From the IMG/VR virus record IMGVR_UViG_3300045988_084596, positions 1 to 57,929 of that record: a stretch of DNA of 57,929 nucleotides. The stretch is one strand, 5' to 3'. This stretch comes from a virus. The notes beneath the pieces are model-generated. The model was not told the origin of the DNA and searched no databases. It saw only the letters and a program-made list of their open reading frames with translations. Both the position numbers and the translations under genes were made by a program. Below, one piece after another: positions 1-57,215 of the stretch. Each line of letters starts with the position of its first letter. The stretch's first letter is position 1.

Positions 1-23
1 TAGCTACATGATAAGGAGAAAGT

Positions 24-1241
24 ATGTCTGAAATAAATCAAGATACTACTTTCGAGCGTTTTTGTAGTTTTGACACTATGTATGATGCGTCTTATAAGGT
101 ATGCCGAAACGTTCGATGGAAAGATAGTACAATTAATTTTGAAGAGAATAGGATAGAAACAATTTTAAAAACAGAAGCTGATCTGCGAGCGTGTGAATAC
201 GAATAGCTTGTGTTTAGTTGTTTTTCGATAATCGAACGAGGCAAACCAAGAGATATAAGAGCGTGTCATATCAACGACAGACTGGTACAAAATGCGTTAT
301 GTGAACAAGTTTTATTACCAGAATTAACTCCTAGATTTATCTACGATAATTGTGCTACTTTAAGAGGAAAAGGAATAGACTTTGCTTTAAAAAGAGTAAA
401 GAAACATCTTCAACAAGCTCATAGAGAATATGGATTAGGAAAAGATTTTTATGGGTTAAGAATTGATATTCAAAAATATTTTGATTCTATTGACCATAAA
501 TCTTTAAAGAAAGCGGCTAAACGTTTGATAAAAGATAAAAGAATTTATCAACTATGCTGTTATTTAATAGATACATTTTCTTTTAAGCTAACAAAAGATT
601 CCTCTCCCATACCAGGAAAAGATTATTATATTAGTAAACGGCACAAATACACGAGAATTAGTACCACTAATTTTAAGCCTGGCCGCAAATACTATGAATA
701 TGATAATAAAAGTCTTGGATTAGGAAGTCAAACATCACAATTATTCGCATTGCTAGCATTGAACGAAATTGACCACTTCATCAAAGAAGAGTTACATATT
801 AAGTATTATGGTCGTTATATGGATGATTTATATTTATTCCACAATGACAGTCAATACTTAGCCGAATGTGAAAAGAGAATAGAAGTTCGCTTAAATAAAC
901 AAGGATTAAAGATGAATAAGAAAAAGACTACTATTACTAGAATCTCTCCTATTCACGCGGACGGCAAACGTCACGCTCCATTAAAATACTTAAAGTGGAA
1001 CTTTTATCTCACAGACACTAATCATATAATACAAATTCCTTTTAAAAAGAAAGTGGCTCATTAGCGCAGAAAGTTGAAGAAAATGCAAGCGCTATGGCTA
1101 GAGGGTAAAATTTCAACAGATGAAATTTAGAAATCCTATCAAGGTTGGAGGGCACATATTTCTAAAGGAACTTGTTTTTATATAATTCAAGATATGGACA
1201 ATTATTTTCGTTCATTATTTAAAGGAGTTGAAATAAAGTAA
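24..1241 (+). CDS. DGR-type reverse transcriptase (diversity-generating retroelement RT), translated through 3 in-frame TAG codons (204-206, 1062-1064, 1128-1130)
   Basis: RBS AAGGAGAAAGT before ATG at 24. Motifs ERGKPRDIRACHINDRLVQNAL (RT motif 1), QKYFDSIDH (motif 2), LGLGSQTSQLFALLALNEIDHF (SQ instead of SP, DGR hallmark), GRYMDDLYLF (YxDD active site), C-terminal thumb SYQGWRAHISKG. The ORF track splits it into 24-206 plus 210-1064, but both are in frame 0, as is the extension to the TAA at 1239-1241. Confidence 0.8.
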
Positions 1242-1903
1242 TGTATATTCTATTAAATAGAGAGAATGTAGTAGTTGATATTCTTTCAGAAGCACGTTAC
1301 ATTAAACTGCAATCCTCAAATGGTATTGTCGTTGCCTGCGAGGAAGAAGAGGGAACTGGGGTTATCGGCTCAAATGGAGATACACATTATACTCTAATTA
1401 AAGCCGATGTATTAAATCAATCTAATGCTGTAAAAGTATTAGAGATAGAAACAATTCCATCAGATGTTACTCCTAATTATTCAATATATAATCAAGAAGA
1501 TGGAACATTCACTTCTGATTTAGATTAGGCAAAGTATGACAAACAAGAGGAAAACAAGAAACTATTCGCAGAGTATCTTGCTACCCACCCACTAACTTGG
1601 GTTGATGGAAAAGAATATGGAATTACGTAGGAGGACCAGTCTGAGATTAGCTTAAATCTCAATCAATATCAAGTCGCTCTCGCGGCCGAAGTAGAAAATC
1701 CTACGCTTGAGTGGCACGCTCGACACGAAGAATGTGTGCCATGGAGTTTAGAGCAATTATCCGCTCTAAGTTTAGCTATTTTAAATGCGGTATATCCCAA
1801 ATATCATTTAATGCAAGAATATAAAACTTAGATATTCGAAGCTGATTCAATAGATAAATTAAAAGCTATTGAATTAAACTATGAAGATACCGACAGTGAG
1901 TAA
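1241..1903 (+). CDS. hypothetical acidic protein (~220 aa) with 3 in-frame TAG codons
   Basis: ATG overlaps the RT stop (TAATG). Frame stays open through TAG codons to the TAA at 1901-1903. No motif recognised. Confidence 0.45.
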
Positions 1904-2338
1904 AAATATAATTCTATTTGCAGTTGGAGGAACTCTATATTACGGTATAGAGTTCCTCTATAAAACTTTTATCAGCTTTGGAACTTGTCATTGGTCTATG
2001 TTCTTATTGGGCGGCTTATGCTTTTTATTAATAGGACTAATGAATGAGAACGTTCTTTGGGAAGAATCTATTCTTACTCAAGGAGTAAAAGGCTCTTTAA
2101 TCATAACTGCTTTAGAATTAATCTTTGGTCTAGTATTAAATGTAAAACTAGGCTTAGGTATTTGGGATTATTCTCATGTTCCATTGAATTTTATGGGGTA
2201 GATTTGTTTACCATTCTCTATCGCCTGGTTCTTTTTAAGCCTTTTGGCAATAGTATTAGACGACTGCCTAAGATGGAAATGGTTTGGAGAAGAAAAACCG
2301 CATTATCATTTATATAGTAAACCTCCTTGCGAGAAATA
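1881..2338 (+). CDS. small multi-pass membrane protein (~152 aa), one in-frame TAG at 2199
   Basis: Hydrophobic segments FAVGGTLYYGIEFLY, MFLLGGLCFLLIGL, LIITALELIFGLVL, CLPFSIAWFFLSLLAIVL. Ends at TAA 2336-2338, immediately before a bidirectional terminator. Confidence 0.45.
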
Positions 2339-2390
2339 AAAAAAAATGGGGAGAACCTTGAAATTAAGGTTCTCCCCATTTTTTTTATTT
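2336..2390. terminator. bidirectional rho-independent terminator between convergent transcription units
   Basis: A8 tract, hairpin ATGGGGAGAACC/GGTTCTCCCCAT (2346-2379), then a T8 tract. Confidence 0.7.
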
Positions 2391-3167
2391 TACATCAATG
2401 ATAATAATAGCAATATCATTTGTTGGTTTTTCTTTTGTATAAAAGGTAATTCCAACCCCAACTGATGCATCAGCGTGATCAATTTTACTATACTCTTCAA
2501 GATTAGAAGTATAACTAATAATAGGTGGCACATTACCTGCTTTTCCGCAAGTTAAAGAAGTATTGGAATAAGTATATGTATACATATCTTCATTTAATAC
2601 CCAACCTGATGCAGAAAGAGTTGCTGGATAAGCTGCCGTAGTACTTCCACTAATCTAGTTATCTGTTTCCAATTTGCTATACACATCTAAATTAGTTCTC
2701 GCCCCTGCTGCATTAATTGCCCCGGTTCCACCAACTGAAATTGGAAGCGTTCCAAATTGCGGAGCGCCAGCTGTAGCGGCAAATAAAGCGCCAGTTCCTT
2801 GCAATCCTGTTACACCATTCTCGCTATTTCCGATAACAATCTAACCAGCCGCAATTTCAACCATCTTTACCGCATTAGTTCCATTACCAATTAATAAAGC
2901 ATTTACAGTTAGACTATTATGTCCAGTTCCGCCCTGAGCTACAGTGGCAGTCATATTTTTAAGAAAAATATCATCAATATCAATCTCAGTAATATCATTC
3001 TTTAGAACTTGAGCAGCATAGGCATTTACCTGCAAACGCCCACCTTCTTCATTACTAATATCAATAAAGAGATTTCCTTTATCTTCTGTGAAATAAGCGT
3101 ATCCTTCATGAAGAGGTACACTATTCAAATTATCTTCTGGTCCTCGAAAAATCTTAAATAAAGCCAT
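2385..3167 (-). CDS. tail fibre protein (260 aa), one TAG
   Basis: RBS AAAGGAGGGCC before ATG at 3167. N-terminus MALFKIFRGPEDNLNSVPLHEGYAYFTEDKGNLFID matches the conserved N-terminal motif of Gram-positive phage tail fibres and HylP-like proteins. Last gene of the late operon; TAA stop at 2385-2387. Confidence 0.6.
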
Positions 3168-3200: not shown

Positions 3201-5132
3201 TTAAGGTATTAAATCACTAAAACTTCCCCAAGATAACAACTCTTCTATCTATTCGGCAGAATATGTCTATCTATCTTTATTTGTAATAGCTCCACCGATT
3301 AAAGTGTTGATATAATGAACGCTATAAGTTTTATTTGTTACCTCTCCGCCATCTTCATTATTATAATCATTATCAATAAGGTTAGCAATACCTCCGGTTA
3401 GTTGAACTCTTCCCCATACTCCATCGGCTGCTTTATAATACCAATAAGAAGTTTCCTAATTAGTCTCATATTCAACCCAAGTAATAGAGAAAATATCCTC
3501 TGCGCTGATTTCTCCATCGTAATTTTCTTCGATGTAATTTACGCCATTCTATAAAGAATCCTTAATTGTTTCAGTTTCGTTAATAGTGTAACTTTTAACT
3601 ATTTTAAGAGCTTCTCCAACAGGACCTTTTAAGTTTCCTTTATTCTTAACCCATGTTCCATTAGAGCTTAATGAATAAATATCTCCTGTATCAGTATTTA
3701 AATACAAATCTCCTGTTTTAGCTCCATCAACAGTAACATTTAAAGATGTATCAGAAACAGCTAATCCAGCAAATAATTTAGATCCTCTTGGAATCTAGAA
3801 ATCAAGATTTACTGTATCAGAAGAAATAATCTTACTAGAGACAGATCCCTCTTCATCAATTCCTATAAAATCAAAAGAAACTCCGTATTTAACCGCGGAT
3901 GGCAGCCCAAAGATAAGTTTCCAAGCGGTTTCTTCCGTATTAGTAAATTCTCTTACTACAGTAGGTGCAGTTGGTTCATACTCGCTACCACCATTTGTAT
4001 AAGGATCTAATTTTGTTACTTCTATTTCAGGTAATGGAGACTAAATACAAGCAACATATTGGAAAGTGCAAGTTGTACCCGACTTCTTTGTTACCTTGTA
4101 AATAAAACCGGTCGGTGCATTAATATAATAATCACCAATATTATAATCTGCAAAAGCTTCATTCGTTTCTTCATAAGTCCCAGCAGTTCTTTCCCCTAAT
4201 AGTTCACCATAATAAAACTTAATAGATTCTGGTAAACTAAATTTTAATACCGGAGAATTAATATTAGTATTATCTATCTAAACTGATGGGTTTTCCTCTG
4301 GACCTACAATAATAGTCTCTGGATTTCCCATTACCTAGCTTTGAGGTAAAAAGAAATTAATAACTGGCTTATTTATATCATCAAAATTTATCTCAAAATA
4401 TGGTGTTTCATTAGAATCAAGAACTGTTGTAGTTCCTTCCTATAATGATTGAGATACAGGTAATTGGAATTTAATTGCCGGTCTATTTATAGAATAAGAA
4501 CCAGACGTTTCTAAGGATACTGTAGGTTCCTCTCCAACATTTAATAATTCAACTAGCGCCGTTTCAATAACTTGTGATTGTGGCAAAGATAATTTTAAAC
4601 TTGGATTATTTATATCTGTTGTATCTAATTTCACACTAGGATTTTTATTGCAATCTAGAACGGTTGTTTCACCTAATTGAATATTTTGACTCTAAGGTAA
4701 CTAAAAAGTTAGCCACAATCTATCTAAATCTGTATTATCCCAAACTACATTTGGATCTTTATCGGCATCAAGAACTTCTGTATCATGTAGGCTAATTCTT
4801 GGTGTATTTCCTGTCATGGAAGCCTGCATCTCATAGCTTAGGCCGCCCGCAGACCCACTTCCATCTTTATCATTAAAAACTTTTTTCCAAAGGGTAGAGT
4901 TATAACTTTTACCATAATTCTATAAATCTTCATTCTTATAAATATCATAATTTGCATCACTTGGCAAACCATACGATACAATAACGAAATCTCCAGGGAA
5001 AATAGAAGATGTCCAACCCTTTGTTAAATCTCTATCCATCTAATATTTACTAGTAAAGATTTGCTTAATTTCAAAATCTATACCTTTAGGTCCTCCATAG
5101 AAACTCTCCATAGTTTGACACCTCCTTATACA
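3201..5132 (-). CDS. large tail fibre / receptor-binding candidate (~643 aa) with repeated L-P-Q/E-S-Q modules, many TAG codons
   Basis: Frame is continuous with ORF 4440-4634 and ends at TAA 3201-3203. Internal repeats KLSLPQSQVIE, KFQLPVSQSLQ, NFFLPQSQVMG, KFSLPESIKF. In-frame ATG at 5132 overlaps the upstream gene's stop. The strong RBS-ATG at 5110 is in another frame and closes after 27 codons. Confidence 0.5.
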
Positions 5133-7629: not shown

Positions 7630-10419
7630 TCAAACATAATACTATTCCACCTTCATGCGCATTTGATTTGTTAAACATTTATAATTTATTACACAAAACT
7701 AAGCACTTTCTAAAGCTATATATTTAACCATATTATCTAATGGATTAAGAGTATACCTTCCAGTTGAGCCAATCTTTATAATAGACGGATCACTTCCATC
7801 TGGACTAGAACTAATTAAAAGGGTAGTTCCTTCATCTGCCTCAATGTCAAGTAAAACAATATCACTAAAAGTATAATAAATCTCGCCATCTGTCAACTAT
7901 CCATCATCATTTAATTCAAAATGAGTATTGTATATAAGCTCAACTTGTTTCTATGTCTCTTCTTTTATTATCTCGTAAATATTAATGGTTTTATATAGAT
8001 TAAAGGTTGTATTATCAACAATAGTATCTCCCTATTTATCCTTGACTAAAAACTTTTCCATATTTGGTGGAACATTACTAAATATACGATAAGTTTCACT
8101 GTTTCTATAATCGTAATTATAGAATTTTAAAACTCCATCTGTACCAGTAAAAATTCCAGAAATCTATCCCCAAATGCGAGAAGCATCAATAGCAGAAACG
8201 ACTCCAACAGAAACGTCCTCAACCTAATTCAACTAGCAAACATAATTTACAATAATAGGAACGCTAGATGCGGACAAAGATAAAGAATTTACATTTTCAT
8301 TTAAATGATAAACTCTATTTGGAGCAACTAAAATTCTTGAACCATTAACATTAATTTCGATAGTCGCGGATTCAGGGCCATCAAGAGCGAGAATCAAATC
8401 TTTACATTCCTAAATCTGTCTATCATATTCAGAAGTATCCTCGTCATCTCCCGCGGCTTCAGATTTAAGAGCTTCTAATTCTAGTAATCGTGCAGTCAAA
8501 TCTATTTTTGGATATTGCTCAATCTAAATATCTGTAACTTGAATTAAATTAAGTTTATATCCTCCGCCTATACTAACTTCTTCCTGCTCTCTTATCTTTG
8601 CATATAAATCTATATTTCTGCCATAAATTCCACTTAACTATCCGAAAGAATTTATTCTATCTTCGCTAGCCAAACTTTCAAATTTACCAATATTTATTAT
8701 ATTAACTTCATTTAAATTTTCTATGGTATTCTCTAAAACTTCATACGCAGTAGCAGAAAAAGAGTAAATCATGCGGCCGACCGTATTATTCGGAGTCAAA
8801 GATACATTCAGCAAGCCTATAATTATATTTCCTTCGGTAGAAGATTTAAAGAGCTTATAATTAAAATCATTTAAAAATTCTTCTACTTTTTCTCTAAATA
8901 TTCTTTCAATAAAAATATTATCATTTGTTAAACTAGTTGAGATAGATAATTTATTTTCATCTGTAGAAACTTCAGAATAAGTTTCCTACTTCTCTTGACA
9001 TTTTCCTCTGGTTACATTGTTTTTAATAAATTTGTCTTTGGGAATTACTAATTCATTATTGTAATAAAGTCCATCATCTTTTAAAGAGAAAAATGTCTAA
9101 TCTTCATCCATCTAAAAACTTATTAATCCAGAAATTGGAAACTCTGCATAATAAGCCTTACCATTCTAAACCAAATGAGGATATTTACTTCCTAAGGTAT
9201 CTTGTTTACTTCTTAAAGTAGTATGTTTAAAGCTGGATAATGTCTAATTAAGAGATAACTTTAACTATATATTATCCCTATAAATATAGCTATATTGGAA
9301 ATCAACACTTCTACCTTGGTTACTTGTATCATATACCTAAGAAGTCCGCAACCCTGCTGAATTTTCCTATTGTATGGCATATTTATATCTTATACCACTT
9401 TCAATAGCAAAATCAACATGAATAACTGAATCATTTAATACTTGATTAGAAAATTTAAGATATTTTAAATCTTCCCATATCTAATAATTACTTTTTTCAG
9501 AACTTCTTGTTATTACATAACTACCACTAAGTCCATTTTTAGCGGTACAAAATATTTTTATACAACCATTTTCTCGACAATATACATCATTATCTTCAAC
9601 TCTAATAGATACTCCCTCTAAATCTCCCAAATAGGTCCTATTAACTGAAAAATTATAAGGTTCTGATTCTCCTTCATATTCATTGATAGTAATAATAGAG
9701 TAGACTACTGTATAGCTTTTATTATTAGTTAATACGGTTTTAAATCTATAAGTATCGGTATTATTAATAGAACCATTGTGCTATAACCATCCAGATGTTT
9801 CAAGTAAATAATTAGGATCTTTAGAGGCTCCTTCATACAAATCAAATTTATATCTATCTAATAATTCATTACTAGCAGAGCTAATATTAAAGCTTCCTAT
9901 AAATAAAGGAGTAAGAGTTGCCTCTATTCTTTCAGTAGATATAACATCTTCTCGTTTAGCTTCATCGTTTTCTATTTTAATAATTGGTGTATCTATAGCC
10001 TTAATTATCATTACTGTAGACCATTCAGAAAAGGCTCCCGCATCTATCTGCTATTGTTTCCAAGTGGCAAATTCTGATAACGAAGTATACATTGGATTTA
10101 TACCAAAACGCATTTGTACTTTGTATAAATAGCCTGGCTGCCAAGATTCAGCTAATTCGCTTCTATTAATTGATACAAAATATTGATTTCCTAAAGACCC
10201 TATCGCAGAAGGAGCTTTATAAATAGTTCCATCTGGATATTGGTCTGTATTTACAATACTTTTATTATTAGACTAACGAACTAACCGCACTTGTACATGA
10301 CCTATGTCACTAAAAGACGTAATTGACTATAGCGTAAAATTTATCTGATATACGTTCACGCTAGAAAGAAATGCTGGCTATGTACTCTACAAAGTAGGCG
10401 GATAAATACTAATTGGCAC
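7630..10419 (-). CDS. large tail protein (929 aa), many TAG codons
   Basis: GTG at 10419 after AAGGAGG. Frame agrees with ORFs 9781-10011 and 7699-7896; first non-TAG stop is the TGA at 7630-7632. Confidence 0.45.
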
Positions 10420-10896: not shown

Positions 10897-11637
10897 TTAT
10901 GGTGAAACCGCATCTGCTAAAGCTTCAAATAAAGCTGCACTAATCAAAGTTTTATCTGCGGTAACTCTTGAAGTCCCGCAAGCAGATGCCATAGAATTAT
11001 AAACACTCGCAGTTATCCAATCACCACGAGAAACTTTTAAATTATTGTATGAAGAATACTGATTTGACTAGTTTCTCCAACTTTTATATTTGCCAACCTA
11101 GTCGGCTAACTAATTCCATTTGCTGGCTGTAGCATAATCTGCTATATAATCTCCAGGACTGCACCCAAAAGAAAAGCTAGTTGGTTGTGTATATACAGTT
11201 ACACTATCAGATGCAGATCCTAAACTAACTGTTGTCCTAGACGTAGTTGGCCCAGTAGTTGTTGTTACATCTTCATAGATTGGATTTCCATTTTCATCTT
11301 TTCCTACTTCTTCTCTATGAGTAGACCATCGAGTTACAGTGGTGGTTTTCGTACATCTAGCACTTAATGTGCCTCTAACTGTGTTTGCCCTTCCCGCGGT
11401 TAAACCAGTAAAATTATGAGTTGGTTCTTTTGAACTAGAGCTGCCTCCATCGCTAAAGCTCCAACTCCATACTGTATTGCTATAAGAAATAGTAGTTCTA
11501 GAACCGTTTTTACTATCTCCCGTAGTAGTCGTTCCAGAATCACTTGGATATACCCATCCTACCGCAGTACAACTTATTGAAGCATATCTCTATCCAACAC
11601 TAGAGTAAGAAGGAGAATGTAAAGTTACAGAACCCAT
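10897..11637 (-). CDS. tail protein (246 aa), Ser/Thr-rich with Ig/FN3-like character
   Basis: RBS GGAG 14 nt after the upstream stop; ATG at 11637; TAA at 10897-10899. Several in-frame TAG codons. Confidence 0.4.
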
Positions 11638-44339: not shown

Positions 44340-44405
44340 GGACTTGTCCAGTAGGACAGAGACAAAAGCACGGCACTTTGAAAATTAAAAAATTTCAAAA
44401 AAGGT

Positions 44406-44434
44406 ATTGACAAACTGCTAAAGGTTTGATACAA
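44406..44434 (+). promoter_or_regulatory. sigma70-type promoter (second tandem)
   Basis: TTGACA-aactgctaaaggtttga(17)-TACAAT with extended TG; A-tract upstream. Confidence 0.5.
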
Positions 44435-44488
44435 TACAGACAGAACAAAAGAGAACCACACCACAAAAAGAAAGGGAGTCAAAAGAGT

Positions 44489-45875: not shown

Positions 45876-45898
45876 ATGCACTTTTCCATATTGACTTT

Positions 45899-45937
45899 TC
45901 GCCGGGCCGCCAGCGTGCGCCGCGGCCCGAATTTTTA
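45899..45937 (+). terminator. conserved GC-rich hairpin terminator (family member 1 of 6)
   Basis: CGCCGGGCCGCcagcgtgcGCCGCGGCCCGAATTTTTAT. Confidence 0.55.
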
Positions 45938-46011
45938 TTTATTCGGCAATTTCAACAATTATATGACCGAAAGTCTGTGCAATTCGACGAAAGTTTTTCT
46001 CCCGAAATTAC

Positions 46012-46040
46012 TTGACATTCCTTTTGCCATGTGTTATTAT
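46012..46040 (+). promoter_or_regulatory. consensus sigma70-type promoter
   Basis: TTGACA-ttccttttgccatgtgt(17)-TATTAT, preceded by TCTCCCGAAA. Confidence 0.55.
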
Positions 46041-46092
46041 ATACTTGTCCAAAGGGACAGGCCACAAAAAGAATTTGAAAGGAAGTAAAAAA

Positions 46093-46332
46093 ATGACTTT
46101 AGATATGGTTGCTTGGTTACTTTCTCCGCTTGCAGAAGATACTATGTTCTTTGACGGGGAGGGATTCGAAATTATCAATAAGAATACCCAAGCTCATTAC
46201 CACGAATTACCTGATGGTAGAATAACTCTGGGAGGAGACGTAATCGAGGTATCTAAGGAATGGGTTCTGGGACTTCAGGTAACCGGCATTGAGGCAAGAG
46301 ATAACAATTTAATCATTTATGTAGATGGTTAA
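46093..46332 (+). CDS. hypothetical protein (79 aa)
   Basis: RBS GAAAGGAAGTAAAAAA before ATG at 46093. Confidence 0.4.
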   Translation: MTLDMVAWLLSPLAEDTMFFDGEGFEIINKNTQAHYHELPDGRITLGGDVIEVSKEWVLGLQVTGIEARDNNLIIYVDG

Positions 46333-46394
46333 GAAAACTTGCGGGAGTGGAGGCCATAAATCTCCACTCCCCATGATAAAAAGGAGGAATAAAT

Positions 46395-46610
46395 ATGATT
46401 GCTGTTATTAAATTTGAAAGTGTAGAAAAATCTGCGGAGTTTGGAGACACAATTTGTAATATGGCTGGTTGGTGTTTGAATCATCCTCTTAATTCCAATG
46501 TTACCGGCTGTGTTCGTACTCTTGATTTTAATACCGGCGACAAACAAGATAGAGCCTTATATAATTATCTGCTAAAAATTAGAGCTTTCGAGGAGGTGGA
46601 ACTAAAGTGA
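46395..46610 (+). CDS. hypothetical protein (71 aa)
   Basis: RBS AAAAGGAGGAATAAAT before ATG. Confidence 0.4.
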   Translation: MIAVIKFESVEKSAEFGDTICNMAGWCLNHPLNSNVTGCVRTLDFNTGDKQDRALYNYLLKIRAFEEVELK

Positions 46611-47016
46611 GTATTGAGCGTTTACCGCATACATATCCTATCGGTTCCACTGTTTGGACAAATAAGGGATATGGCACAGTTCTACTTCACATTGGTAAAT
46701 ACCATCTGGTTTGGTTACAGAGATTAGGGCTGGCGTAATGCCGGCCCTATTGATTTTTTCAAAAAAATATATTATAATAATTATAGAAAAATAAAGAAAG
46801 GAGTTTTTCTAATGACCTTAGAAGTGCTGAAAGCACTCGCGGTTATTTTGGAGTTCTGTTTGAACTAGGATTCTTGTAAAAATTGCCCTATGTCTCAGTT
46901 CTGCCAGAAAATGCCTTGCGAGCGGTAAATGTTCCTTCCGATTGTTCTAAATCGGCGATTCCCGTGATGGAGTCGTTTTTCGCACGAGCCTAGGTCACTA
47001 GAATTTATTTATCAAA

Positions 47017-47250
47017 ATGCAAGAAACTACTTTCTCTCGCAAATTAGATTCAAGTGGTAGAATTATGATTCCGATTCGCTTGCGTGAACAAATGGGACTT
47101 ACTTCCGGTTAGGAATACTATTTTACTACTATGGTAAAAGATGGTAGAAAATATATCTGTATTGACTGCGGATCGGTTGATTCCTCGCTTGAAGAAGCTA
47201 TGAAAATTATCCAAGCAAACGGATTAAAGATTGTTGAAAATGCCGATTGA
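47017..47250 (+). CDS. AbrB/SpoVT-like swapped-hairpin DNA-binding protein (77 aa) with one in-frame TAG at 47110
   Basis: KLDSSGRIMIPIRLREQMGLTSG(TAG)EYYFTTMVKDGRKYICI resembles the AbrB N-terminal domain (VDELGRVVIPIELRR.LGI...). TGA stop, then a double terminator. Confidence 0.55.
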
Positions 47251-47293
47251 CTTCTCAAAAGAAAGGGAGTTGTTGGTATGCAGAAATTAATGA

Positions 47294-47324
47294 CCTCCTG
47301 AAATTCAGGAGGTTCTTTTTTTAT
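47294..47324 (+). terminator. intrinsic terminator
   Basis: CCTCCTGAAATTCAGGAGG then TTCTTTTTTTAT. Confidence 0.6.
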
Positions 47325-47329
47325 TCGAT

Positions 47330-47368
47330 CGCCCGGCCGTGCACTATAGGCGCGGCCGGAATTTTTTA
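47330..47368 (+). terminator. conserved GC-rich hairpin terminator (family member 2)
   Basis: GCCCGGCCGtgcactataggCGCGGCCGGAATTTTTTAT. Confidence 0.55.
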
Positions 47369-47369
47369 T

Positions 47370-47423
47370 CAAGAGGCAATTTGCACAATTTTCCAGCCGA
47401 AATTTTGTGCAGTTTGCCTCTTG
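47370..47423 (+). promoter_or_regulatory. conserved dyad element (CAAGAGGCAA-TTGCACAATTTT...AATTTTGTGCA-TTGCCTCTTG)
   Basis: Near-perfect 22-bp inverted repeat around a 9-nt centre, located between the terminator pair and the promoter. Paralogous copies at 48263-48310, 49842-49919, 51636-51670 and 45946-45982. Confidence 0.5.
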
Positions 47424-47449
47424 TTTTCTATCCCGAAATCTGATATACT
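47421..47449 (+). promoter_or_regulatory. sigma70-type promoter
   Basis: TTGTTT-17-TATACT with extended TG, preceded by TATCCCGAAA. Confidence 0.45.
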
Positions 47450-47481
47450 TTAATCAACCTAAAGAAAGGAAGTAAATCAAA

Positions 47482-47946
47482 ATGAAAAAGATGCTCTGCT
47501 TTGATATGGATGGAACAATCGCTGACCTGTACGGCGTGGATGATTGGTTAAAAGATTTAATGAATGAAAATCCCTATCCATATACAGTCGCCAAACCTCT
47601 TTGCGATATAGAAGAATTGAATACCGTTCTTAATAAGCTCATTGAGCAGGGCTGGGAAATTCGGGTTATCAGTTGGCTTGCAAAAGACAGTTCTAACTCA
47701 TATAAAACTGCTGTTCGTGACGCAAAGCGCACTTGGCTTGCAAAATACAACTTCCCCGCACATAAAGTCCACCTTGTGGAATATGGCACAACAAAAGCAA
47801 ATTGTGTGCGGAAACACTTTGAGCCGGGAATTAGCAATTTCATTTTGATTGATGATAATAAAAGTGTGCGGGATGGCTGGCATTTAGGGGAAACAATCGA
47901 GCCACATGAAGATTTACCTACGGCCTTATGGCGACTGGTAGAGTAA
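47482..47946 (+). CDS. HAD-superfamily 5'(3')-deoxyribonucleotidase-like protein (154 aa)
   Basis: Motif I MLCFDMDGTIADLYG (DxDGT) is typical of NT5C-type dNMP nucleotidases. RBS GAAAGGAAGTAAATCAAA. Confidence 0.65.
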   Translation: MKKMLCFDMDGTIADLYGVDDWLKDLMNENPYPYTVAKPLCDIEELNTVLNKLIEQGWEIRVISWLAKDSSNSYKTAVRDAKRTWLAKYNFPAHKVHLVEYGTTKANCVRKHFEPGISNFILIDDNKSVRDGWHLGETIEPHEDLPTALWRLVE

Positions 47947-47986
47947 TCCACCAGTCAATCTTAAAATAAGAAAGGAAGTTTTGTAA

Positions 47987-48175
47987 ATGAAGATTAGAAA
48001 GGTTAATAGGCTTATCCTCAGCGAGGAAGAGCGACAAGTATTGAAAAATGCGTCCATTCTCATTGGTCAAATTGATCAGGTTATGGCCGACAATGAAATT
48101 GATGACGATATTTCGCTTGAAGATTTAAGCTATTGGCTTGACGAGATTATCAATAAAGAATATCTTGGATATTAA
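47987..48175 (+). CDS. hypothetical acidic protein (62 aa)
   Basis: RBS AAGAAAGGAAGTTTTGTAA before ATG. Confidence 0.4.
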   Translation: MKIRKVNRLILSEEERQVLKNASILIGQIDQVMADNEIDDDISLEDLSYWLDEIINKEYLGY

Positions 48176-48199
48176 GAGGGCTTCGGCCCTCTTATTTTT
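48175..48199 (+). terminator. intrinsic terminator (UUCG-type tetraloop hairpin)
   Basis: AGAGGGCTTCGGCCCTCT then TATTTTT. Confidence 0.55.
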
Positions 48200-48216
48200 A
48201 CTCTTTAATATCGTTT

Positions 48217-48262
48217 GGGCGGCTCGCTGGCGCACGCGGCGAGCCGAGTTTTTGTTTTTGTC
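48217..48262 (+). terminator. conserved GC-rich hairpin terminator (family member 3)
   Basis: GGGCGGCTCGCtggcgcacgcGGCGAGCCGAGTTTTTGTTTTTG. Confidence 0.55.
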
Positions 48263-48307
48263 GATGTTGCACAATTTTGGCTTGCAAATTTTGTGCAATT
48301 TGCCATC

Positions 48308-48336
48308 TTGTAATTATCCCGAAAGTATGGTATTAT
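48308..48336 (+). promoter_or_regulatory. sigma70-type promoter
   Basis: TTGTAA-17-TATTAT with extended TG, preceded by TATCCCGAAAG. Confidence 0.45.
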
Positions 48337-48501
48337 ATATTTGTCAAGAGGGGAAGGCCAAGAAATCAAGAGGTCGCGAACTCTTAGAAAGTAAAGGAAG
48401 TAAATTTATATTGTGTCGTAAGTCGAGTGAACGCCGTTAGAATAGGCCGTTCTAATGCCCAGTAGCTTGCAGTAAATCGCAATAAAAATTTCCTTTTCCT
48501 C

Positions 48502-48530
48502 TTGACATCAAGCATGATATGTGCTATAAT
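48502..48530 (+). promoter_or_regulatory. consensus sigma70-type promoter
   Basis: TTGACA-tcaagcatgatatgtgc(17)-TATAAT. Confidence 0.55.
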
Positions 48531-48562
48531 AAACTCAACAAGAGGAAAGGAAGTCAAAGATT

Positions 48563-49354
48563 ATGATTGATAAGCGTAGACACTATGTTTTGGTGGTTGA
48601 TACTGAAACTGCTAACACACTGACTGAAACTGACGAAAACGGCAAAGCCCGCATGGATATGAGTTGCGTTCTTGTCTATGATTGCGGATGGGCGGTAGTG
48701 GATACCAAGGGCAATATTTATGAAACTGCCAGTTTTGTAAATAGGGACATTTTCAACGATGAGCGGGATCTCATGCGGACTGCTTATTATAATTGGAAAA
48801 TTCCCCGCTATATTGAGGAACTGCGGGCCGGCACTCGTAAAATGGCTACCACTTATGAAATCCGCCAAGCTATGCTCAATACCATTGAGCGATACGGCAT
48901 TAAGGAAGTTGCGGCTTATAATGCCAGATTTGACGATAATGCCTTGAGAGTTACACAACGATGGGTCACTTGCTCCAAGTTCCGCTACTGGTTCCCGTTT
49001 GATAGTGTGGAAATCTGGGACATTATGAAGATGACACAGGATGTTATCTGCAATATGCCCACTTATAAGAAATTCTGTCAGGAAAACGGATATGTCCAGG
49101 CCAATGGCGTTCCTCGTAAGACTGCGGAAATCGTGTGGCGGTTTATTTCTGGCAATACCGATTTTGAAGAAAGTCATACGGGGCTTGAGGATGTTCTCAT
49201 TGAGGCGGAAATCATGTGGTATTGTATGCGTCAGCATAAGCCCATGAGAAAGGCCCTGTATGAGAATAAGAGAGAGTTTCCACCTATGACAGATTTTCAG
49301 CGTCAACTTTCCGCAAGTATGCGTTCAATTCCAACTATCCGGGTAGGGGCTTAA
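48563..49354 (+). CDS. DEDDh-family 3'-5' exonuclease (DnaQ-like), 263 aa
   Basis: Exo I motif VVDTETAN, Exo II motif AYNARFD, Exo III motif HTGLEDVLIEAE (H...D). RBS AGAGGAAAGGAAGTCAAAG. Confidence 0.6.
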   Translation: MIDKRRHYVLVVDTETANTLTETDENGKARMDMSCVLVYDCGWAVVDTKGNIYETASFVNRDIFNDERDLMRTAYYNWKIPRYIEELRAGTRKMATTYEIRQAMLNTIERYGIKEVAAYNARFDDNALRVTQRWVTCSKFRYWFPFDSVEIWDIMKMTQDVICNMPTYKKFCQENGYVQANGVPRKTAEIVWRFISGNTDFEESHTGLEDVLIEAEIMWYCMRQHKPMRKALYENKREFPPMTDFQRQLSASMRSIPTIRVGA

Positions 49355-49381
49355 AGCCCCGCCCGACAGAAAGGAAATAAT

Positions 49382-49573
49382 ATGTCTCAAGTTCATTGTA
49401 TGCGGTGGAGTTGCCCGCATTATGCCGAGGAAGGCATGGACCCAGAACAAATCTATGATACTATCTGCCCAGATTTTGACACGGAATCACTTTGTTGCTC
49501 TTTGGGTGAGCCATGGTTCGACTGTGACGAATATCAGAGACAATATGGAGTTGATGATTTCGAGGAGGAATAA
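49382..49573 (+). CDS. small acidic Cys-rich protein (63 aa)
   Basis: RBS AGAAAGGAAATAAT before ATG. Confidence 0.35.
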   Translation: MSQVHCMRWSCPHYAEEGMDPEQIYDTICPDFDTESLCCSLGEPWFDCDEYQRQYGVDDFEEE

Positions 49574-49574
49574 A

Positions 49575-49757
49575 ATGGTAACAAAAACTGTATATACCTC
49601 TTCTCTGTGCGCAGATGCCGTTTATATGGCAATTCAAATTATTGAGCGTATGGGATGGTGTCATGATGATATTGACGAAGATGGAAATATGCTGGTAAAT
49701 GTTCCCATTGAGGATGAACACCTGTTTGATTTTCTGGATAACTGTATTTTCTGTTAA
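49575..49757 (+). CDS. small hypothetical protein (60 aa)
   Basis: RBS GAGGAGGAATAAA before ATG at 49575. The track's longer 49422 ORF shares the 3' part. Confidence 0.3.
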   Translation: MVTKTVYTSSLCADAVYMAIQIIERMGWCHDDIDEDGNMLVNVPIEDEHLFDFLDNCIFC

Positions 49758-49786
49758 GAAGGGCTTCGGCCCTTCTTTTTTTATAC
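49758..49786 (+). terminator. intrinsic terminator (UUCG tetraloop hairpin)
   Basis: GAAGGGCTTCGGCCCTTC then TTTTTTTAT. Confidence 0.55.
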
Positions 49787-49792
49787 AAAATT

Positions 49793-49832
49793 TGAGCGGG
49801 TCGCGCAGGAACGGCGCGACCCGAGTTTTTCT
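49793..49832 (+). terminator. conserved GC-rich hairpin terminator (family member 4)
   Basis: GAGCGGGTCGCGCaggaacgGCGCGACCCGAGTTTTTC. Confidence 0.55.
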
Positions 49833-50027
49833 TTGTAAATGTTGCACAAAAATTTCAGCTCCGTTTTGTGTAAAATTCTGCACAAAAACTTTCTCCCAAA
49901 ATTCAGATTTTTTGTGCAATTTGACGCTTGCAATCTGCTTTTGCTTGTGGTAAAATACATTCAGAAAGTGAGAGAGACGAACGGCAGACAGCGACAGCGA
50001 ATTTCTCAAAAATCTTTCAAGAATCTC

Positions 50028-50056
50028 TTGACAAGCCTTTGAAGATGTGCTATAAT
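50028..50056 (+). promoter_or_regulatory. consensus sigma70-type promoter P1 of a triple tandem array
   Basis: TTGACA-agcctttgaagatgtgc(17)-TATAAT. Confidence 0.55.
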
Positions 50057-50105
50057 AAGTACAGAAAACAAGGCAAGGAACCTTGAAAAGTGAATAAAAA
50101 AGGGC

Positions 50106-50134
50106 TTGACAAACTCTCCAAAGTGTGTTACACT
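50106..50134 (+). promoter_or_regulatory. sigma70-type promoter P2
   Basis: TTGACA-aactctccaaagtgtgt(17)-TACACT. Confidence 0.45.
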
Positions 50135-50200
50135 ATAAGGGAGGTTGAGAGGGCAAACAAGTAAAGAGCAAAAGTTCTTGAAAAAAGTTTGAAAAACCTC

Positions 50201-50229
50201 TTGACAAACTCCCGATAGTGTGGTACAAT
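50201..50229 (+). promoter_or_regulatory. sigma70-type promoter P3
   Basis: TTGACA-aactcccgatagtgtgg(17)-TACAAT with extended TG. Confidence 0.5.
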
Positions 50230-50278
50230 ATAATCAAAGGACAAGGACAGTCCTAAAAACCAGAAAGGATGTATTACC

Positions 50279-50680
50279 ATGAGCGAGAAGAAAATCCGTA
50301 TCACTAAGGCCCAGCGTTTCGAGGACATTAAGGCCCTCTTGGCTGGTGATGAGGTGAAGCATGGCACAACCATGGAGATTGCCATGACCGTCATTGACCA
50401 TGAGCTGGAGCTGTTGCGGAAGAAGAATAGCTCCGGCGGTGACAAGAAGCTGACCTCGACCCAGCAGGAGAACGAAAACTTTAAGGAGCAGATTATGGAG
50501 TATCTGGCTGGTCTGGACGCCGATACCGATGGCGTGACCTGCACGGAAATTTTTAAGGCTATTCCTGATCTGACGGCCTATTCTAACCAGAAGGTCGCCG
50601 CTCTTGTGCGGCAGTTGAAACTCGATGGTCGAGTAGTCTGCACGGAGAAGAAGGGCAAGTCCCTCTTTAAGATGGCGTAA
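50279..50680 (+). CDS. hypothetical protein (133 aa), compositionally atypical (GC-rich codons), possible winged-helix C-terminus
   Basis: RBS AGAAAGGATGTATTACC. Codon usage (CTG, GAG, AAG, GCC) differs visibly from the rest of the window. Followed by hairpin GGGCGGGGtgaaaatCCCCGCCC. Confidence 0.45.
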   Translation: MSEKKIRITKAQRFEDIKALLAGDEVKHGTTMEIAMTVIDHELELLRKKNSSGGDKKLTSTQQENENFKEQIMEYLAGLDADTDGVTCTEIFKAIPDLTAYSNQKVAALVRQLKLDGRVVCTEKKGKSLFKMA

Positions 50681-51136: not shown

Positions 51137-51192
51137 CGGGGTAGGGTCGGCCTACCCCGGCCCTACCAGAAAAGAGGCAAGTTATAGTTAGT

Positions 51193-56678: not shown

Positions 56679-57215
56679 ATGATTGGTGAGACTATTACTG
56701 TAAATGGAGTAAAGTGCCTTGTTCTTGACGAAATTGATGGTAACCCCTTCGTAATTGCACTTGAAGTAGGAATTGATTTTGTCTTTGGAAATTCTAATAA
56801 CTATAAAGAGAGTACATTGCGGAAGGGCGCTGAGGCTTGGCTTAAGAAAACTGGCATTAAGGCTATTCCGCGCGATGTCGACCTGACTGCAATGGATGGA
56901 TATAAAGGATATGGTTCACTAAATACCGCTGTTGCACCCCTTACCTTCGACGAATATCGCAAGTATAATCATATTCTAACTCCTCATATCAAGAATTGGT
57001 TCTGGCTTGTTACCCCTTGGGGATCTCCTGAGAAAGATAATTGGGCCTCGCTCTACGTTTGCGTTGTCCTCTACGATGGGTCTGCGACCTACAACTTCTA
57101 CTACACCGGCATCGGGCTCGCGCCGGCTTTCATTCTTGATAAAAATGAGAAGTCTCTTAGTGACTTTACTAATGAGGAGCTAATTGCTGAACTTAACAAG
57201 AGATTGAAGGTATAA
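56679..57215 (+). CDS. hypothetical protein (178 aa)
   Basis: RBS AAGAAAGGAAGAGAAAT before ATG at 56679. The track's 56613 start is in the same frame. Confidence 0.4.
   Translation: MIGETITVNGVKCLVLDEIDGNPFVIALEVGIDFVFGNSNNYKESTLRKGAEAWLKKTGIKAIPRDVDLTAMDGYKGYGSLNTAVAPLTFDEYRKYNHILTPHIKNWFWLVTPWGSPEKDNWASLYVCVVLYDGSATYNFYYTGIGLAPAFILDKNEKSLSDFTNEELIAELNKRLKV

What the first reader, a model, noticed from the sequence alone, without database searches (positions are those of the whole stretch)
24..1241. DGR-type reverse transcriptase at the window edge, itself amber-recoded; template and variable repeats not visible
The RT has the DGR hallmarks: FDSIDH, GSQTSQLF (SQ rather than SP), YMDD, and the ALLALNEID segment. 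It needs read-through of three TAGs, so the diversity-generating system would only be made once the recoded code is active.

The template repeat normally lies within a few hundred bp of the RT, most often upstream. Upstream is outside this window, since the RT starts at base 24.

I could not find a TR/VR pair by eye in 1065-2400 or at the 3' ends of the tail fibre genes (2385-3167, 3201-5132, 10897-11637). The hypervariable target, possibly a C-type-lectin-fold tail fibre, therefore remains to be located.
Basis: partly seen in the sequence, partly recalled or inferred. Interest (0 to 1): 0.8.

Follow-up and report, generated by a model that had tools for sequence, protein, structure and literature searches.

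The report
Active phage hypermutation system, amber-recoded
The gene at the window's left edge is a genuine diversity-generating-retroelement reverse transcriptase of a gut phage that reads TAG as glutamine; its template lies just off the window, but one of its two hypervariable target genes sits inside the window 56 kb away, and the system as a whole is an ordinary, well-known kind.

Summary
Window 24-1241 (+) is a 405-codon reverse transcriptase (RT) gene with the quoted motifs and three in-frame TAGs (codons 61, 347, 369). Relatives have Gln or TAG at those sites.

The diversity-generating retroelement (DGR) interpretation is supported. Public contigs 98.8-99.5% identical to the window continue leftwards with this order: target gene with variable repeat VR1, an Avd-like gene, a 103-nt template repeat (TR), a ~309-nt structured spacer, then the RT. 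All 15-24 TR/VR1 mismatches sit at TR adenines.

New result: the window does hold a variable repeat. VR2 (57047-57126) lies in a 178-aa gene (56679-57215). It matches the TR at 52 of 52 non-adenine positions and differs at 17 of 28 adenines. In 110 public variants of this protein all VR peptides differ, and variation is confined to adenine-containing TR codons.

TAG-to-Gln recoding is solid: coding coverage is 32% under the standard code and 90.5% with TAG as sense, and relatives carry a tRNA(CUA).

DGRs are very common in gut phages, amber-interrupted DGR RT genes are already published, and two-target cassettes with DUF6273 targets are known. Verdict: new member of a known kind, modest interest.

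The parts
1..23 (+). Last 23 nt of the DGR non-coding spacer between TR and RT. It holds the 3' arm (CTACA, nt 4-8) of the terminal conserved helix and the RT ribosome-binding site (AAGGAG, nt 13-18).
   Evidence: Identical to the 23 nt before the RT start in all 12 contigs that carry the window's exact RT fragments. The helix is supported by compensatory changes in the alignment of 11 relatives.
24..1241 (+). DGR reverse transcriptase gene: 405 codons, TAG = Gln at codons 61, 347 and 369, stop TAA. It has the GxxxSQ motif (GSQTSQ) and the catalytic YMDD.
   Evidence: Relatives have Gln or TAG at the three TAG sites, plus Met in 2 at residue 369. A TR lies about 309 nt upstream in near-identical contigs.
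56679..57215 (+). Second DGR target gene: 178 aa, a stand-alone DUF6273-like variable protein with no Gln codon of any kind. The ATG at 56679 follows AAAGGAAG. The longer ORF from 56613 overlaps the preceding gene.
   Evidence: Public gene calls are 178 aa. Some variants carry a precomputed PF19789 (DUF6273) hit.
57047..57126 (+). Variable repeat VR2, 80 nt, homologous to the 3' 80 nt of the off-window TR.
   Evidence: 52/52 non-adenine TR positions match. There are 17 mismatches, all at the 28 TR adenines. The background for a random window position is 15.8 +/- 3.6 of 74. Relatives differ only at adenine sites, and TR polymorphisms are mirrored. Protein entropy is confined to adenine-containing codons.
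57127..57143 (+). Flank 3' of VR2 (CTTTCATTCTTGATAAA). It begins with the same CTTTC as the VR1 flank (CTTTCGTCATTGGATAA), whereas the TR continues ATTAGATGGAGC. This is a candidate homing-initiation (IMH-type) element, together with the GC-rich GGGCTCGCGCCGG.
   Evidence: Sequence comparison. Function is inferred from the Bordetella phage BPP-1 paradigm and was not tested.

Best explanation
Window 24-1241 encodes the reverse transcriptase of a complete, recently active diversity-generating retroelement (DGR). The host element is a ~115-150 kb tailed phage, probably infecting Clostridia, that reads TAG as glutamine.

Shown:
- In near-identical genomes the cassette order is: target 1 (585 aa, Ig-like Big_3 domains plus a C-terminal DUF6273 domain ending in VR1), an Avd-like 164-aa four-helix protein, a 103-nt TR, a ~309-nt spacer with conserved secondary structure, then the RT.
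- A second target, VR2, lies in the window about 56 kb downstream.

Inferred from the established DGR mechanism:
- The TR-spacer RNA is copied by RT/Avd into cDNA, with misincorporation opposite adenines.
- The cDNA replaces VR1 and VR2, guided by the shared GC-rich 3' end and flank.
- This randomises 12-15 AAC/AAT codons in a ligand-binding surface.

RT, Avd and target 1 contain in-frame TAGs. Their synthesis therefore needs amber suppression, most likely by the tRNA(CUA) that the relatives encode.
For: RT identity:
- Pfam, PHROG and PDB matches.
- Nearest phage homologues are RTs of phages with annotated or published DGRs: nd12, Roseburia phage Shimadzu, and (DGR status from my own knowledge) Faecalibacterium phages and Vibrio VP585.

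Cassette:
- 27 of 33 related IMG/VR loci have a ~103-bp TR/VR pair with 15-24 mismatches, all or nearly all at TR adenines. The loci without a detected pair are mostly those whose contig ends at VR1.

Activity:
- Three contigs 98.8-99.3% identical to the window carry near-identical TRs (they differ at one non-adenine base, which is mirrored in the VRs) but have different VR1s.
- In 16 loci of the 77% clade there are 4 TRs and 16 VRs. Diversity is 0.565 at adenine sites against 0.006 at other sites.
- TR point differences (GGA; G/C in GGGCTSGCG) are copied into VR1 and VR2 of the same contig.
- The TR allele predicted from the window's VR2 exists in contigs carrying the window's exact RT fragments.

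VR2 in the window:
- 52/52 non-adenine matches and 17 adenine-only mismatches.
- 110 of 110 public variants have distinct VR peptides. Entropy is 2.6-3.4 bits at AAC/AAT codons, at most 0.07 at codons without adenine, and 0.075 on average elsewhere.

Avd-like protein:
- Right position and size.
- AF2 model with pLDDT 88.5 is a four-helix bundle. Top Foldseek hits are 2rld chains, deposited as 'S23 ribosomal protein family'; I believe (from memory) this is the Pfam family that holds Avd.

Spacer RNA:
- 27 of 55 predicted pairs show compensatory changes, against 8.2 +/- 1.9 in shuffles and 4-7 in slid controls.

Recoding:
- ORF coverage is 32% (code 11) against 90.5% (TAG as sense).
- TAG aligns with Gln.
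- A tRNA(CUA) similar to the phAss-1 suppressor is present in relatives.
Against: - The window's own TR, Avd and VR1 were not seen. They are inferred from contigs 98.8-99.5% identical, none 100% identical.
- No read-level data were available, so diversification within one population was not observed directly.
- Avd and C-type-lectin assignments are weak at the sequence level: no Pfam hit for Avd, Foldseek E 0.12, DUF6273 E 0.16 for target 2. The AF2 model of target 2 failed (pLDDT 37).
- Some near-identical contigs carry a disrupted RT: TGA at codon 55, or a +1 frameshift in an A-run. Individual lineages may therefore be inactive, or these are assembly errors.
- Timing of amber suppression is unknown.
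Confidence: 0.93

Rival explanations
1. The DGR is a recent relic in the window's own strain. The RT gene looks intact, but the system no longer mobilises cDNA. The VR diversity seen among strains would then be inherited from earlier activity.
For: Two kinds of RT-disrupting changes occur in contigs about 99% identical to the window. No within-sample variation could be examined.
Against: - The window RT has all catalytic motifs and no non-TAG stop.
- VR2 shows 0 of 52 non-adenine mismatches to the TR, so no decay is visible.
- TR polymorphisms are mirrored in both VRs, even in the contig with the TGA.
- Every one of 110 public variants has a different VR peptide.
- At least 8 independent assemblies break at VR1.
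Confidence: 0.05
2. The RT belongs to another class of prokaryotic retroelement: a group II intron maturase, a retron, or a defence-associated DRT/UG/Abi RT. It would only happen to lie near repeats.
For: - The best NCBIfam hit is group_II_RT_mat, at 73.9 bits.
- PADLOC DRT/UG models give E 1e-10 to 1e-17.
This is as expected for any RT domain.
Against: - All those hits are far below the curated cut-offs: 73.9 against 300, Drt3a 50.6 against 200, retron 32 against 235.
- The motif is GxxxSQ, not SP.
- The best PDB hit is the chain I take to be the Bordetella phage DGR RT, at 58.8 bits, against 34 for a group II RT.
- No Rfam family, including group II intron RNA, matches in the region upstream of the RT in L004 (nt 8700-10200).
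- The adenine-specific TR/VR system is adjacent.
Confidence: 0.01
3. The three TAGs are real stops, so the RT is a split or dead gene in a standard-code genome.
For: Standard-code gene callers split it into 60-aa and 284-aa products in public assemblies.
Against: - Reading TAG as sense raises ORF coverage from 32% to 90.5%. One structural gene has 111 in-frame TAGs.
- TAG columns are Gln in relatives, including the catalytic-region GSQTSQ glutamines.
- The same frame is conserved across 65-99% identical RTs with 0-8 TAGs at varying Gln positions.
- A tRNA(CUA) is encoded by relatives.
Confidence: 0.01

Closest known systems
DGR cassettes of gut phages nd12 / nd4 (Tentaclin paper, PMC10743442) and Roseburia phage Shimadzu (LR596903)
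   Same: - Nearest RTs in the annotated phage collection, 33-35% identity over 96-98% of the length.
- Shimadzu shares the order: target, Avd, TR, RT.
- One TR serves two target genes.
- One target is a small protein made only of DUF6273, which that paper models as a C-type-lectin fold.
- VR lies at or near the 3' end, and AAC-rich TR codons are used.
   Different: - The genome here is TAG-recoded and about 3-4 times larger (about 115-150 kb against 33-46 kb).
- The second target is about 56 kb from the RT, not inside the cassette.
- Target 1 has Ig-like domains N-terminal and the lectin-type domain C-terminal, the reverse of tentaclins.
- The RT carries a ~40-aa clade-specific insertion before the GSQTSQ motif.
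- The Avd-like protein has a 13-aa insertion and no Pfam hit.
Bordetella phage BPP-1 DGR (mtd-avd-TR-brt)
   Same: - Same gene order.
- Adenine-specific mutagenesis signature.
- GC-rich 3' end of VR/TR followed by diverging flanks (IMH/IMH* logic).
- A structured spacer RNA between TR and RT.
- Best solved-structure match of the RT is 8ub7, which I identify from memory as the BPP-1 RT.
   Different: - The RT is 405 aa against 328 aa, with low sequence identity.
- The spacer is ~309 nt (against ~140 nt in BPP-1, from memory) and matches no Rfam family.
- There are two targets.
- The target scaffold is DUF6273 rather than Mtd.
- No clear hairpin was found downstream of VR2.
- The genetic code is recoded.
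DGRs of Zeta (and Epsilon) crAss-like phages with amber-suppressed RT genes (PMC12386605, PMC11054128)
   Same: - DGR RT genes are interrupted by in-frame TAG in phages that carry suppressor tRNAs.
- The GxxxSQ motif is present.
- Targets are proteins with a C-type-lectin domain.
- Some genomes have several TR-VR pairs.
   Different: - The phage lineage is different. TerL is nearest to Enterococcus H1/EF1, Geobacillus E3 and phAss-1, not Crassvirales.
- The likely hosts are Clostridia rather than Bacteroidota.
- An Avd-like gene is present here, whereas most Zeta cassettes lack one.
phAss-1 / 'Caudoviricetes code 15 clade' phages (PMC10607447)
   Same: - TAG-to-Gln recoding concentrated in virion genes.
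- Genome size around 136 kb with a large tRNA set.
- A homologous tRNA-Sup(CTA).
- TerL 44% identical.
- Predicted Clostridia hosts.
   Different: - That paper reports no reverse transcriptase or DGR (0 occurrences of the terms).
- I did not test the phAss-1 genome itself for one.

Membership tests
Diversity-generating retroelement (DGR) | Reverse transcriptase of the DGR clade (GxxxSQ in motif 4, YxDD catalytic motif) | tested here: met
   GSQTSQ and YMDD are present. The best PDB match is 8ub7, which I take to be the Bordetella phage DGR RT. The best phage matches include RTs of annotated or published DGR cassettes.
Diversity-generating retroelement (DGR) | Template repeat / variable repeat pair whose mismatches fall at adenines of the TR | tested here: met
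   Window VR2 (57047-57126) against the TR of contigs carrying the window's exact RT fragment: 17 mismatches, all at adenines, and 52/52 other positions identical. For TR/VR1, 27 of 33 related loci show a pair with 15-24 mismatches, all or nearly all at adenines. The TR itself is off-window.
Diversity-generating retroelement (DGR) | Non-coding TR next to the RT gene | tested here: met
   The TR ends about 309 nt upstream of the RT start in all close relatives. Window bases 1-23 are identical to the end of that spacer. This was not directly observable for the window's own molecule.
Diversity-generating retroelement (DGR) | Accessory variability determinant (Avd): a small basic four-helix-bundle protein | tested here: inconclusive
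   A conserved 152-164-aa gene lies between VR1 and TR. The AF2 model (pLDDT 88.5) shows four long helices. The top three Foldseek PDB hits are 2rld chains ('S23 ribosomal protein family'), with probability 1.0 but E 0.12. There is no Pfam or PDB sequence hit. hhalign to Shimadzu Avd gives E 0.0036.
Diversity-generating retroelement (DGR) | Target protein displays the VR on a C-type-lectin-fold (or Ig-fold) ligand-binding domain | tested here: inconclusive
   Target 1 C-terminus matches Pfam DUF6273 at E 1.3e-10. Target 2 is weak (E 0.16), though some variants have precomputed PF19789 hits. DUF6273-only DGR targets were modelled as C-type lectin in PMC10743442. My AF2 model of target 2 failed (pLDDT 37). 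There is no PDB sequence hit.
Diversity-generating retroelement (DGR) | Directional TR-to-VR transfer with a homing-initiation element at the 3' end of the VR | tested here: met
   TR-specific base differences at non-adenine sites reappear in VR1 and VR2 of the same contig. The GC-rich GGGCTSGCGCCGG is shared by TR and both VRs. Both VRs then continue CTTTC, whereas the TR continues ATTAG. The biochemical role was not tested.
Diversity-generating retroelement (DGR) | Population-level hypervariability restricted to the VR | tested here: met
   110/110 distinct VR2 peptides, with entropy confined to adenine-containing codons. In 16 loci there are 16 VR1s but 4 TRs. Assemblies repeatedly break at VR1. 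Within-sample read data were not available.
Stop-codon-recoded phage (genetic code 15, TAG = Gln) | In-frame TAGs in conserved genes at positions that are Gln in homologues, with a much higher coding density when TAG is sense | tested here: met
   Coverage is 32% against 90.5%. RT TAG sites are Gln or TAG in relatives, plus Met in 2 at residue 369. The same holds in the Avd-like gene.
Stop-codon-recoded phage (genetic code 15, TAG = Gln) | Phage-encoded suppressor tRNA with anticodon CUA | tested here: met
   None is in the window. It is present in relatives about 99% identical, roughly 33 kb beyond the window's right end (L058 17418-17493, L061 17434-17509), and in more distant clades. It is similar to the phAss-1 tRNA-Sup-CTA. 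Charging with Gln is inferred.
Group II intron reverse transcriptase/maturase | Full-length match to the maturase family and an intron RNA around the ORF | tested here: not met
   TIGR04416 scores 73.9 bits against a cut-off of 300. No Rfam family matches in the region upstream of the RT in L004 (nt 8700-10200).
Retron / defence-associated RTs (DRT, UG/Abi) | Family-level match above the curated threshold, and the associated msr/msd RNA or effector domains | tested here: not met
   Retron St85 scores 32 against 235, Drt3a 50.6 against 200, Drt2 42.7 against 390. The PADLOC hits are generic RT-domain matches.

The most novel reading that the evidence does not exclude
The DGR is split across the phage's two translational regimes.

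- RT (3 TAG), Avd (1 TAG) and target 1 (8 TAG) can only be made when the phage tRNA(CUA) is active. Mutagenic homing would then be confined to the late phase, just before packaging.
- The remote second target is a Gln-free 178-aa protein with no anchoring domain, in a block of TAG-free genes. It is readable under either code.

Target 2 could therefore be a diversified non-virion binder, for example one directed at a variable host factor, rather than a receptor-binding tail protein.
Probability: 0.1. Interest if true: 0.6.

Novelty: new member of a known kind. Interest (0 to 1): 0.33.

Why it matters
It shows that standard-code annotation hides complete DGRs in recoded phages. Here the RT is split into 60-aa and 284-aa calls and the Avd-like gene is truncated at 112 aa. 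It also shows that remote variable repeats can only be found once the template is known.

It adds a DGR to the phAss-like group of large, tRNA-rich, code-15 phages of probable Clostridia hosts, where none had been described.

It supplies a clean natural data set: hundreds of VR2 variants and a spacer RNA with covariation. This could be used to study DGR target recognition and DGR RNA structure.

None of this changes the current understanding of DGRs or of recoding.

Tried and rejected
- Self-comparison of the window (repeat finder and a word-7 blastn with mismatch spectra) found no adenine-biased pair. This is correct, because the TR is off-window.
- The window ends do not overlap, so the missing cassette is not at the right end.
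- Megablast of the first 6 kb against GenBank phages gave no match.
- Rfam on the cassette region gave no family.
- Sequence and profile searches of the PDB with the Avd-like family and with the target-1 C-terminal domain gave nothing.
- AF2 on target 2 with a shallow alignment (89-95% identical sequences) failed, with pLDDT 37, so the fold was not tested.
The TR scan gave a single hit in the window, with the next best at background level.
- The suppressor tRNA was first sought in the window, in the +/-10 kb loci and in the first part of the tRNA cluster, without success. It was found only after walking further.
- A relaxed ARAGORN run produced many false positives, including a 'tRNA(cta)' call inside the spacer. 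I discount it.
One chunk-boundary hop was unproductive.
- I tried to recover the window's own upstream DNA through exact-protein look-ups. This returned only strains 99.2-99.5% identical and short contigs. The 94.5-kb ENA contig with the window's exact VR2 protein could be read only around that gene.
- A crAss-like affiliation was considered because of the literature hit. It was rejected on TerL, portal and capsid matches.
Full report
**1. What is in the sequence**

Window 24-1241 (+) is one reading frame of 405 codons ending in TAA. It is interrupted only by TAG, at codons 61, 347 and 369 (nt 204-206, 1062-1064, 1128-1130).

With TAG read as Gln, the protein matches:
- Pfam RVT_1, E 1.3e-16.
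- PHROG 1423 'reverse transcriptase', E 3.5e-84, over residues 7-399.
- Among solved structures, best of all chain 8ub7_A (328 aa, E 5e-15), which I identify from memory as the reverse transcriptase (RT) of the Bordetella phage BPP-1 diversity-generating retroelement (DGR). Group II intron RTs score lower, at 1.6e-07.

NCBIfam hits to group II maturase, DRT and retron models are all far below their curated cut-offs. A tblastn search against 50,697 GenBank phages gives 90 records. The best are phage nd12, Roseburia phage Shimadzu, Faecalibacterium phages, Vibrio VP585 and Bordetella phages. For nd12/nd4 and Shimadzu the DGR is documented here; for the others I rely on my own knowledge.

**2. 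The genome is recoded**

- ORFs of at least 100 aa cover 32% of the window under the standard code. They cover 90.5% if TAG is sense. TGA-sense or TAA-sense readings do not help.
- The minus-strand virion block (2.4-40.7 kb) is dense with in-frame TAG. One 2901-aa gene has 111.
- About half or more of the Gln codons in most virion-block genes are TAG.
- In an alignment of 29 distinct RTs of this family, the window's three TAG sites are occupied by TAG or Gln (15/14 and 24/5), and at residue 369 by TAG, Gln or Met (5/22/2).
- In a few relatives, even the two glutamines of the GSQTSQ motif are TAG.
- The number of TAGs in the RT ranges from 0 to 8 among relatives. They look like ordinary Gln-codon drift under code 15 rather than a device specific to this gene.

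No tRNA lies in the window. Walking along contigs about 99% identical showed a cluster of more than 40 tRNAs, starting about 7 kb beyond the window's right end. It includes a tRNA with anticodon CUA (L058 17418-17493, L061 17434-17509). The same tRNA is present in more distant clades. It is clearly homologous to the tRNA-Sup-CTA of phage phAss-1, which its authors assign to Gln (PMC10607447).

**3. Extending leftwards**

A 35-mer from the RT start, and then the RT protein, retrieved 33 IMG/VR loci with RTs 65-99% identical, on contigs up to 148 kb. Four of them are 98.8-99.3% identical to the window over 8.7-11.2 kb.

Read upstream of the RT, they show the following:
- The 3' end of a 585-aa gene.
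- A 164-aa gene.
- A non-coding repeat.
- About 309 nt of spacer.

Per-locus self-comparison found a ~103-bp repeat pair in 27 of 33 loci. The pairs have 15-24 mismatches, all or nearly all at adenines of the RT-proximal copy. The loci without a detected pair are mostly those whose contig stops about 1.0-1.2 kb upstream of the RT, that is, inside the variable repeat.

Contigs that carry the window's exact 60-aa or 284-aa RT fragments were obtained by exact look-up and are 99.2-99.5% identical to the window. All have the window's bases 1-23 immediately before the RT start, and the TR 309 nt upstream.

The cassette is therefore: target 1 (VR1), Avd-like gene, TR, spacer, RT. This is the layout annotated in Roseburia phage Shimadzu and, from my own knowledge, in BPP-1.

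**4. A variable repeat inside the window**

I scanned the window on both strands with the relatives' TR, scoring only non-adenine positions. This gave one outlier: 55 of 74 at 57027 (+), against 15.8 +/- 3.6 for the background.

Refined, window 57047-57126 matches the 3' 80 nt of the TR as follows:
- 51 of 52 non-adenine positions with one TR allele.
- 52 of 52 with the allele GGGCTCGCGCCGG.
- 17 mismatches, all at the 28 adenines.

That allele was predicted from VR2 before it was found in the contigs sharing the window's exact RT fragments.

VR2 lies in a 178-aa gene (56679-57215). Its ATG is preceded by AAAGGAAG, and public gene calls are also 178 aa. The gene sits in a tightly packed plus-strand operon.

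After the shared GC-rich end, both VRs continue with CTTTC, whereas the TR continues with ATTAG. This is the arrangement expected of a homing-initiation element. No other TR-like site exists in the window or in the flanks examined.

**5. Evidence that the element works**

- Three contigs about 99% identical to the window carry near-identical TRs (they differ at one non-adenine base) but have different VR1s. Thirty of 36 TR adenines vary. The only non-adenine difference is that TR polymorphism, mirrored in VR1.
- The same contig-specific TR base (GGA) is also mirrored in VR2 of that contig.
- In 16 loci of the 77% clade there are 4 TRs and 16 VR1s. Pairwise diversity is 0.565 at adenine sites and 0.006 at other sites. 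One non-adenine TR mutation is copied into its VR.
- A search with the window's target-2 protein found 357 clusters, nearly all 178 aa and 89-95% identical.
- In 110 of them every VR peptide is different. Entropy is 2.6-3.4 bits at the 12 positions templated by AAC/AAT, and 0.6-1.0 at GAT, TAC and AGC. It is at most 0.07 at codons without adenine, and 0.075 on average outside the VR.
- At least eight independent assemblies terminate inside VR1.

This is the classical DGR signature. It also shows TR-to-VR directionality.

By my own calculation, the TR allows about 1e16 peptides for VR2 and about 1e20 for VR1. As in other DGRs, the AAC design cannot create stop codons in either code.

**6. Accessory parts**

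Avd-like gene:
- It is conserved across the family. Its TAG positions alternate with Gln among clades.
- It has no Pfam, PHROG or PDB sequence match.
- It aligns end to end with the annotated Avd of phage Shimadzu at 21% identity (hhalign E 0.0036).
- An AF2 model from 28 homologues (pLDDT 88.5) shows four long helices.
- Its best Foldseek matches are chains of 2rld, deposited as 'S23 ribosomal protein family'. I believe from memory that this is the Pfam family containing Avd. Probability is 1.0 but E is only 0.12.
- I call it Avd-like, with moderate confidence.

Targets:
- Target 1 has Big_3 Ig-like domains and a C-terminal DUF6273 domain (E 1.3e-10).
- Target 2 is a stand-alone domain with only a weak DUF6273 match. 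Its AF2 model failed.
- The tentaclin paper reports that DUF6273-only DGR targets of phages nd4 and nd12 model as C-type-lectin folds (PMC10743442). I did not reproduce this.

Spacer between TR and RT:
- It has no Rfam match.
- It folds into a conserved structure. Of 55 predicted pairs, 27 show compensatory changes, against 8.2 +/- 1.9 in shuffles and 4-7 when partners are slid.
- Window bases 1-23 contain the 3' arm of its last helix and the RT ribosome-binding site.

**7. Which phage**

Portal, capsid-like and terminase genes are present. TerL is closest to the following:
- An unannotated human faecal phage (61%).
- Enterococcus phages H1 and EF1 and Geobacillus E3 (about 50%).
- phAss-1 (44%).

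It is not close to Crassvirales. Relatives sit on ~148-kb contigs binned with Oscillospiraceae, Eubacterium and Clostridia MAGs. That is weak evidence for host.

**8. Mechanism**

Shown:
- RT identity.
- Cassette anatomy in near-identical genomes.
- VR2 in the window.
- Adenine-restricted hypervariation and TR-to-VR copying.
- TAG = Gln, and a tRNA(CUA) in relatives.
- A conserved spacer structure.

Inferred from established DGR biology:
- The TR-spacer transcript is reverse-transcribed by RT with the Avd-like protein, with random incorporation opposite adenine.
- The cDNA replaces VR1 and VR2, using the GC-rich end and flank.

Inferred from the recoding literature (PMC10607447, PMC12386605):
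- RT, Avd and target 1 can be completed only when amber suppression is available, probably late in infection.
- Timing was not tested. Target 2, which has no Gln codon at all, does not depend on it.

**9. Comparison with what is known, and novelty**

- DGRs are found in most RT-bearing high-quality gut phage genomes: 85.7% of 25,620 (PMC8241571).
- Amber suppression inside DGR RT genes has been reported for seven Zeta crAss-like phages (PMC12386605).
- Two-target phage DGRs with a DUF6273-only target are described (PMC10743442).

What is particular here:
- The lineage: large, tRNA-rich, code-15 phages near phAss-1. The description of that group mentions no RT or DGR.
- The ~56-kb separation of the second target.
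- A clade-specific ~40-aa insertion in the RT.
- The divergent Avd-like protein.

This is a new member of a known kind. I put it at about 0.33, not 0.8.

**10. Caveats**

- No contig 100% identical to the window was recovered upstream of base 1.
- There were no read-level data.
- The Avd and lectin-fold assignments are not firmly tested.
- Some near-identical contigs carry a TGA at RT codon 55, or a +1 frameshift in an A-run at codon 161. These may be real inactivations or assembly errors.

Noticed in passing
window 56679-57215: The second DGR target has no glutamine codon of any kind (0 TAG, 0 CAA, 0 CAG). It is the only ORF of at least 140 aa in the window like this. It therefore reads identically in the standard and recoded codes. 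This could be chance or selection.
   Followed up: partly
L058 17418-17493; L061 17434-17509; L060 17435-17509 (relatives, about 33 kb beyond the window's right end): An amber-suppressor tRNA (anticodon CUA) sits at the far end of a cluster of more than 40 tRNAs. It is homologous to phAss-1 tRNA-Sup-CTA. The phage also encodes ordinary tRNA-Gln(UUG) and tRNA-Gln(CUG).
   Followed up: yes
L060 6063-6378; L066 6260-6604; L071 5975-6319: Some relatives carry a tmRNA gene inside the tRNA cluster, with tag peptides DNDYFENYLAA and DNNYFDSHMAA. A tmRNA in a stop-codon-recoded phage is curious.
   Followed up: no
window RT residues ~187-227 (nt ~582-704): There is a clade-specific insertion of about 40 aa between RT motif 3 and the GSQTSQ motif. 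It is absent from the Shimadzu and nd12 RTs and from the 8ub7 chain. There is also a smaller insertion after residue ~309.
   Followed up: partly
L005 (contig 3300045988_080502), RT codon 55; L031/L032, RT codon 161: Contigs about 99% identical to the window have a CGA-to-TGA change, or a +1 A in an A-run, in the RT. These are either lineage-specific inactivation or assembly error. Their VRs still mirror their TRs.
   Followed up: partly
L007, L008, L019, L022, L027, L032, L049, L055, L109-L118: Many independent assemblies end 1.0-1.3 kb upstream of the RT, inside or at VR1. Many carriers of target 2 sit on contigs of about 7.99 kb. This is consistent with assembly breakage at hypervariable repeats.
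   Followed up: partly
window 45896-51711 (also 44383-44439, 50082-50233): There are repeated units of a GC-rich hairpin followed by a T-run and a promoter-like TTGACA...TACAAT element, four or more copies, in an otherwise AT-rich region of small, mostly TAG-free ORFs. These are probably reiterated terminator/promoter modules of an early region.
   Followed up: no
window 2334-2391: A 58-nt near-perfect palindrome (86% identity) lies between the convergent plus-strand block (RT, 1241-1903, 1881-2339) and the minus-strand tail genes. It is probably a bidirectional terminator.
   Followed up: no
window 1241-1903 and 1881-2339: Two TAG-containing genes lie downstream of the RT. One has a weak DUF4376 match (E 2e-4). 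The other is a membrane protein matching ABC_trans_CmpB / PHROG 20274. Their role is unknown, and they are conserved next to the RT in relatives.
   Followed up: partly
L017 9843-9923 and equivalents (spacer of the 77% clade): At a relaxed threshold ARAGORN calls a 'tRNA(cta)'-like cloverleaf inside the DGR spacer. It is not called at the default threshold or in the window's clade, so it is most likely a false positive.
   Followed up: no
L110 (ENA ERZ28756360 contig_1993): The window's exact 284-aa RT fragment is joined directly to a 716-aa bacterial Fer4/Pyr_redox_2 oxidoreductase gene, without the RT N-terminus. This is probably a chimeric assembly.
   Followed up: no
L108 (ENA ERZ27250587 k119_144312, 94,543 bp): This contig carries the window's exact VR2 protein. 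Given the hypervariability, that is a strain fingerprint. By coordinates it should extend about 27 kb to the left of window base 1. I could not read that part.
   Followed up: partly
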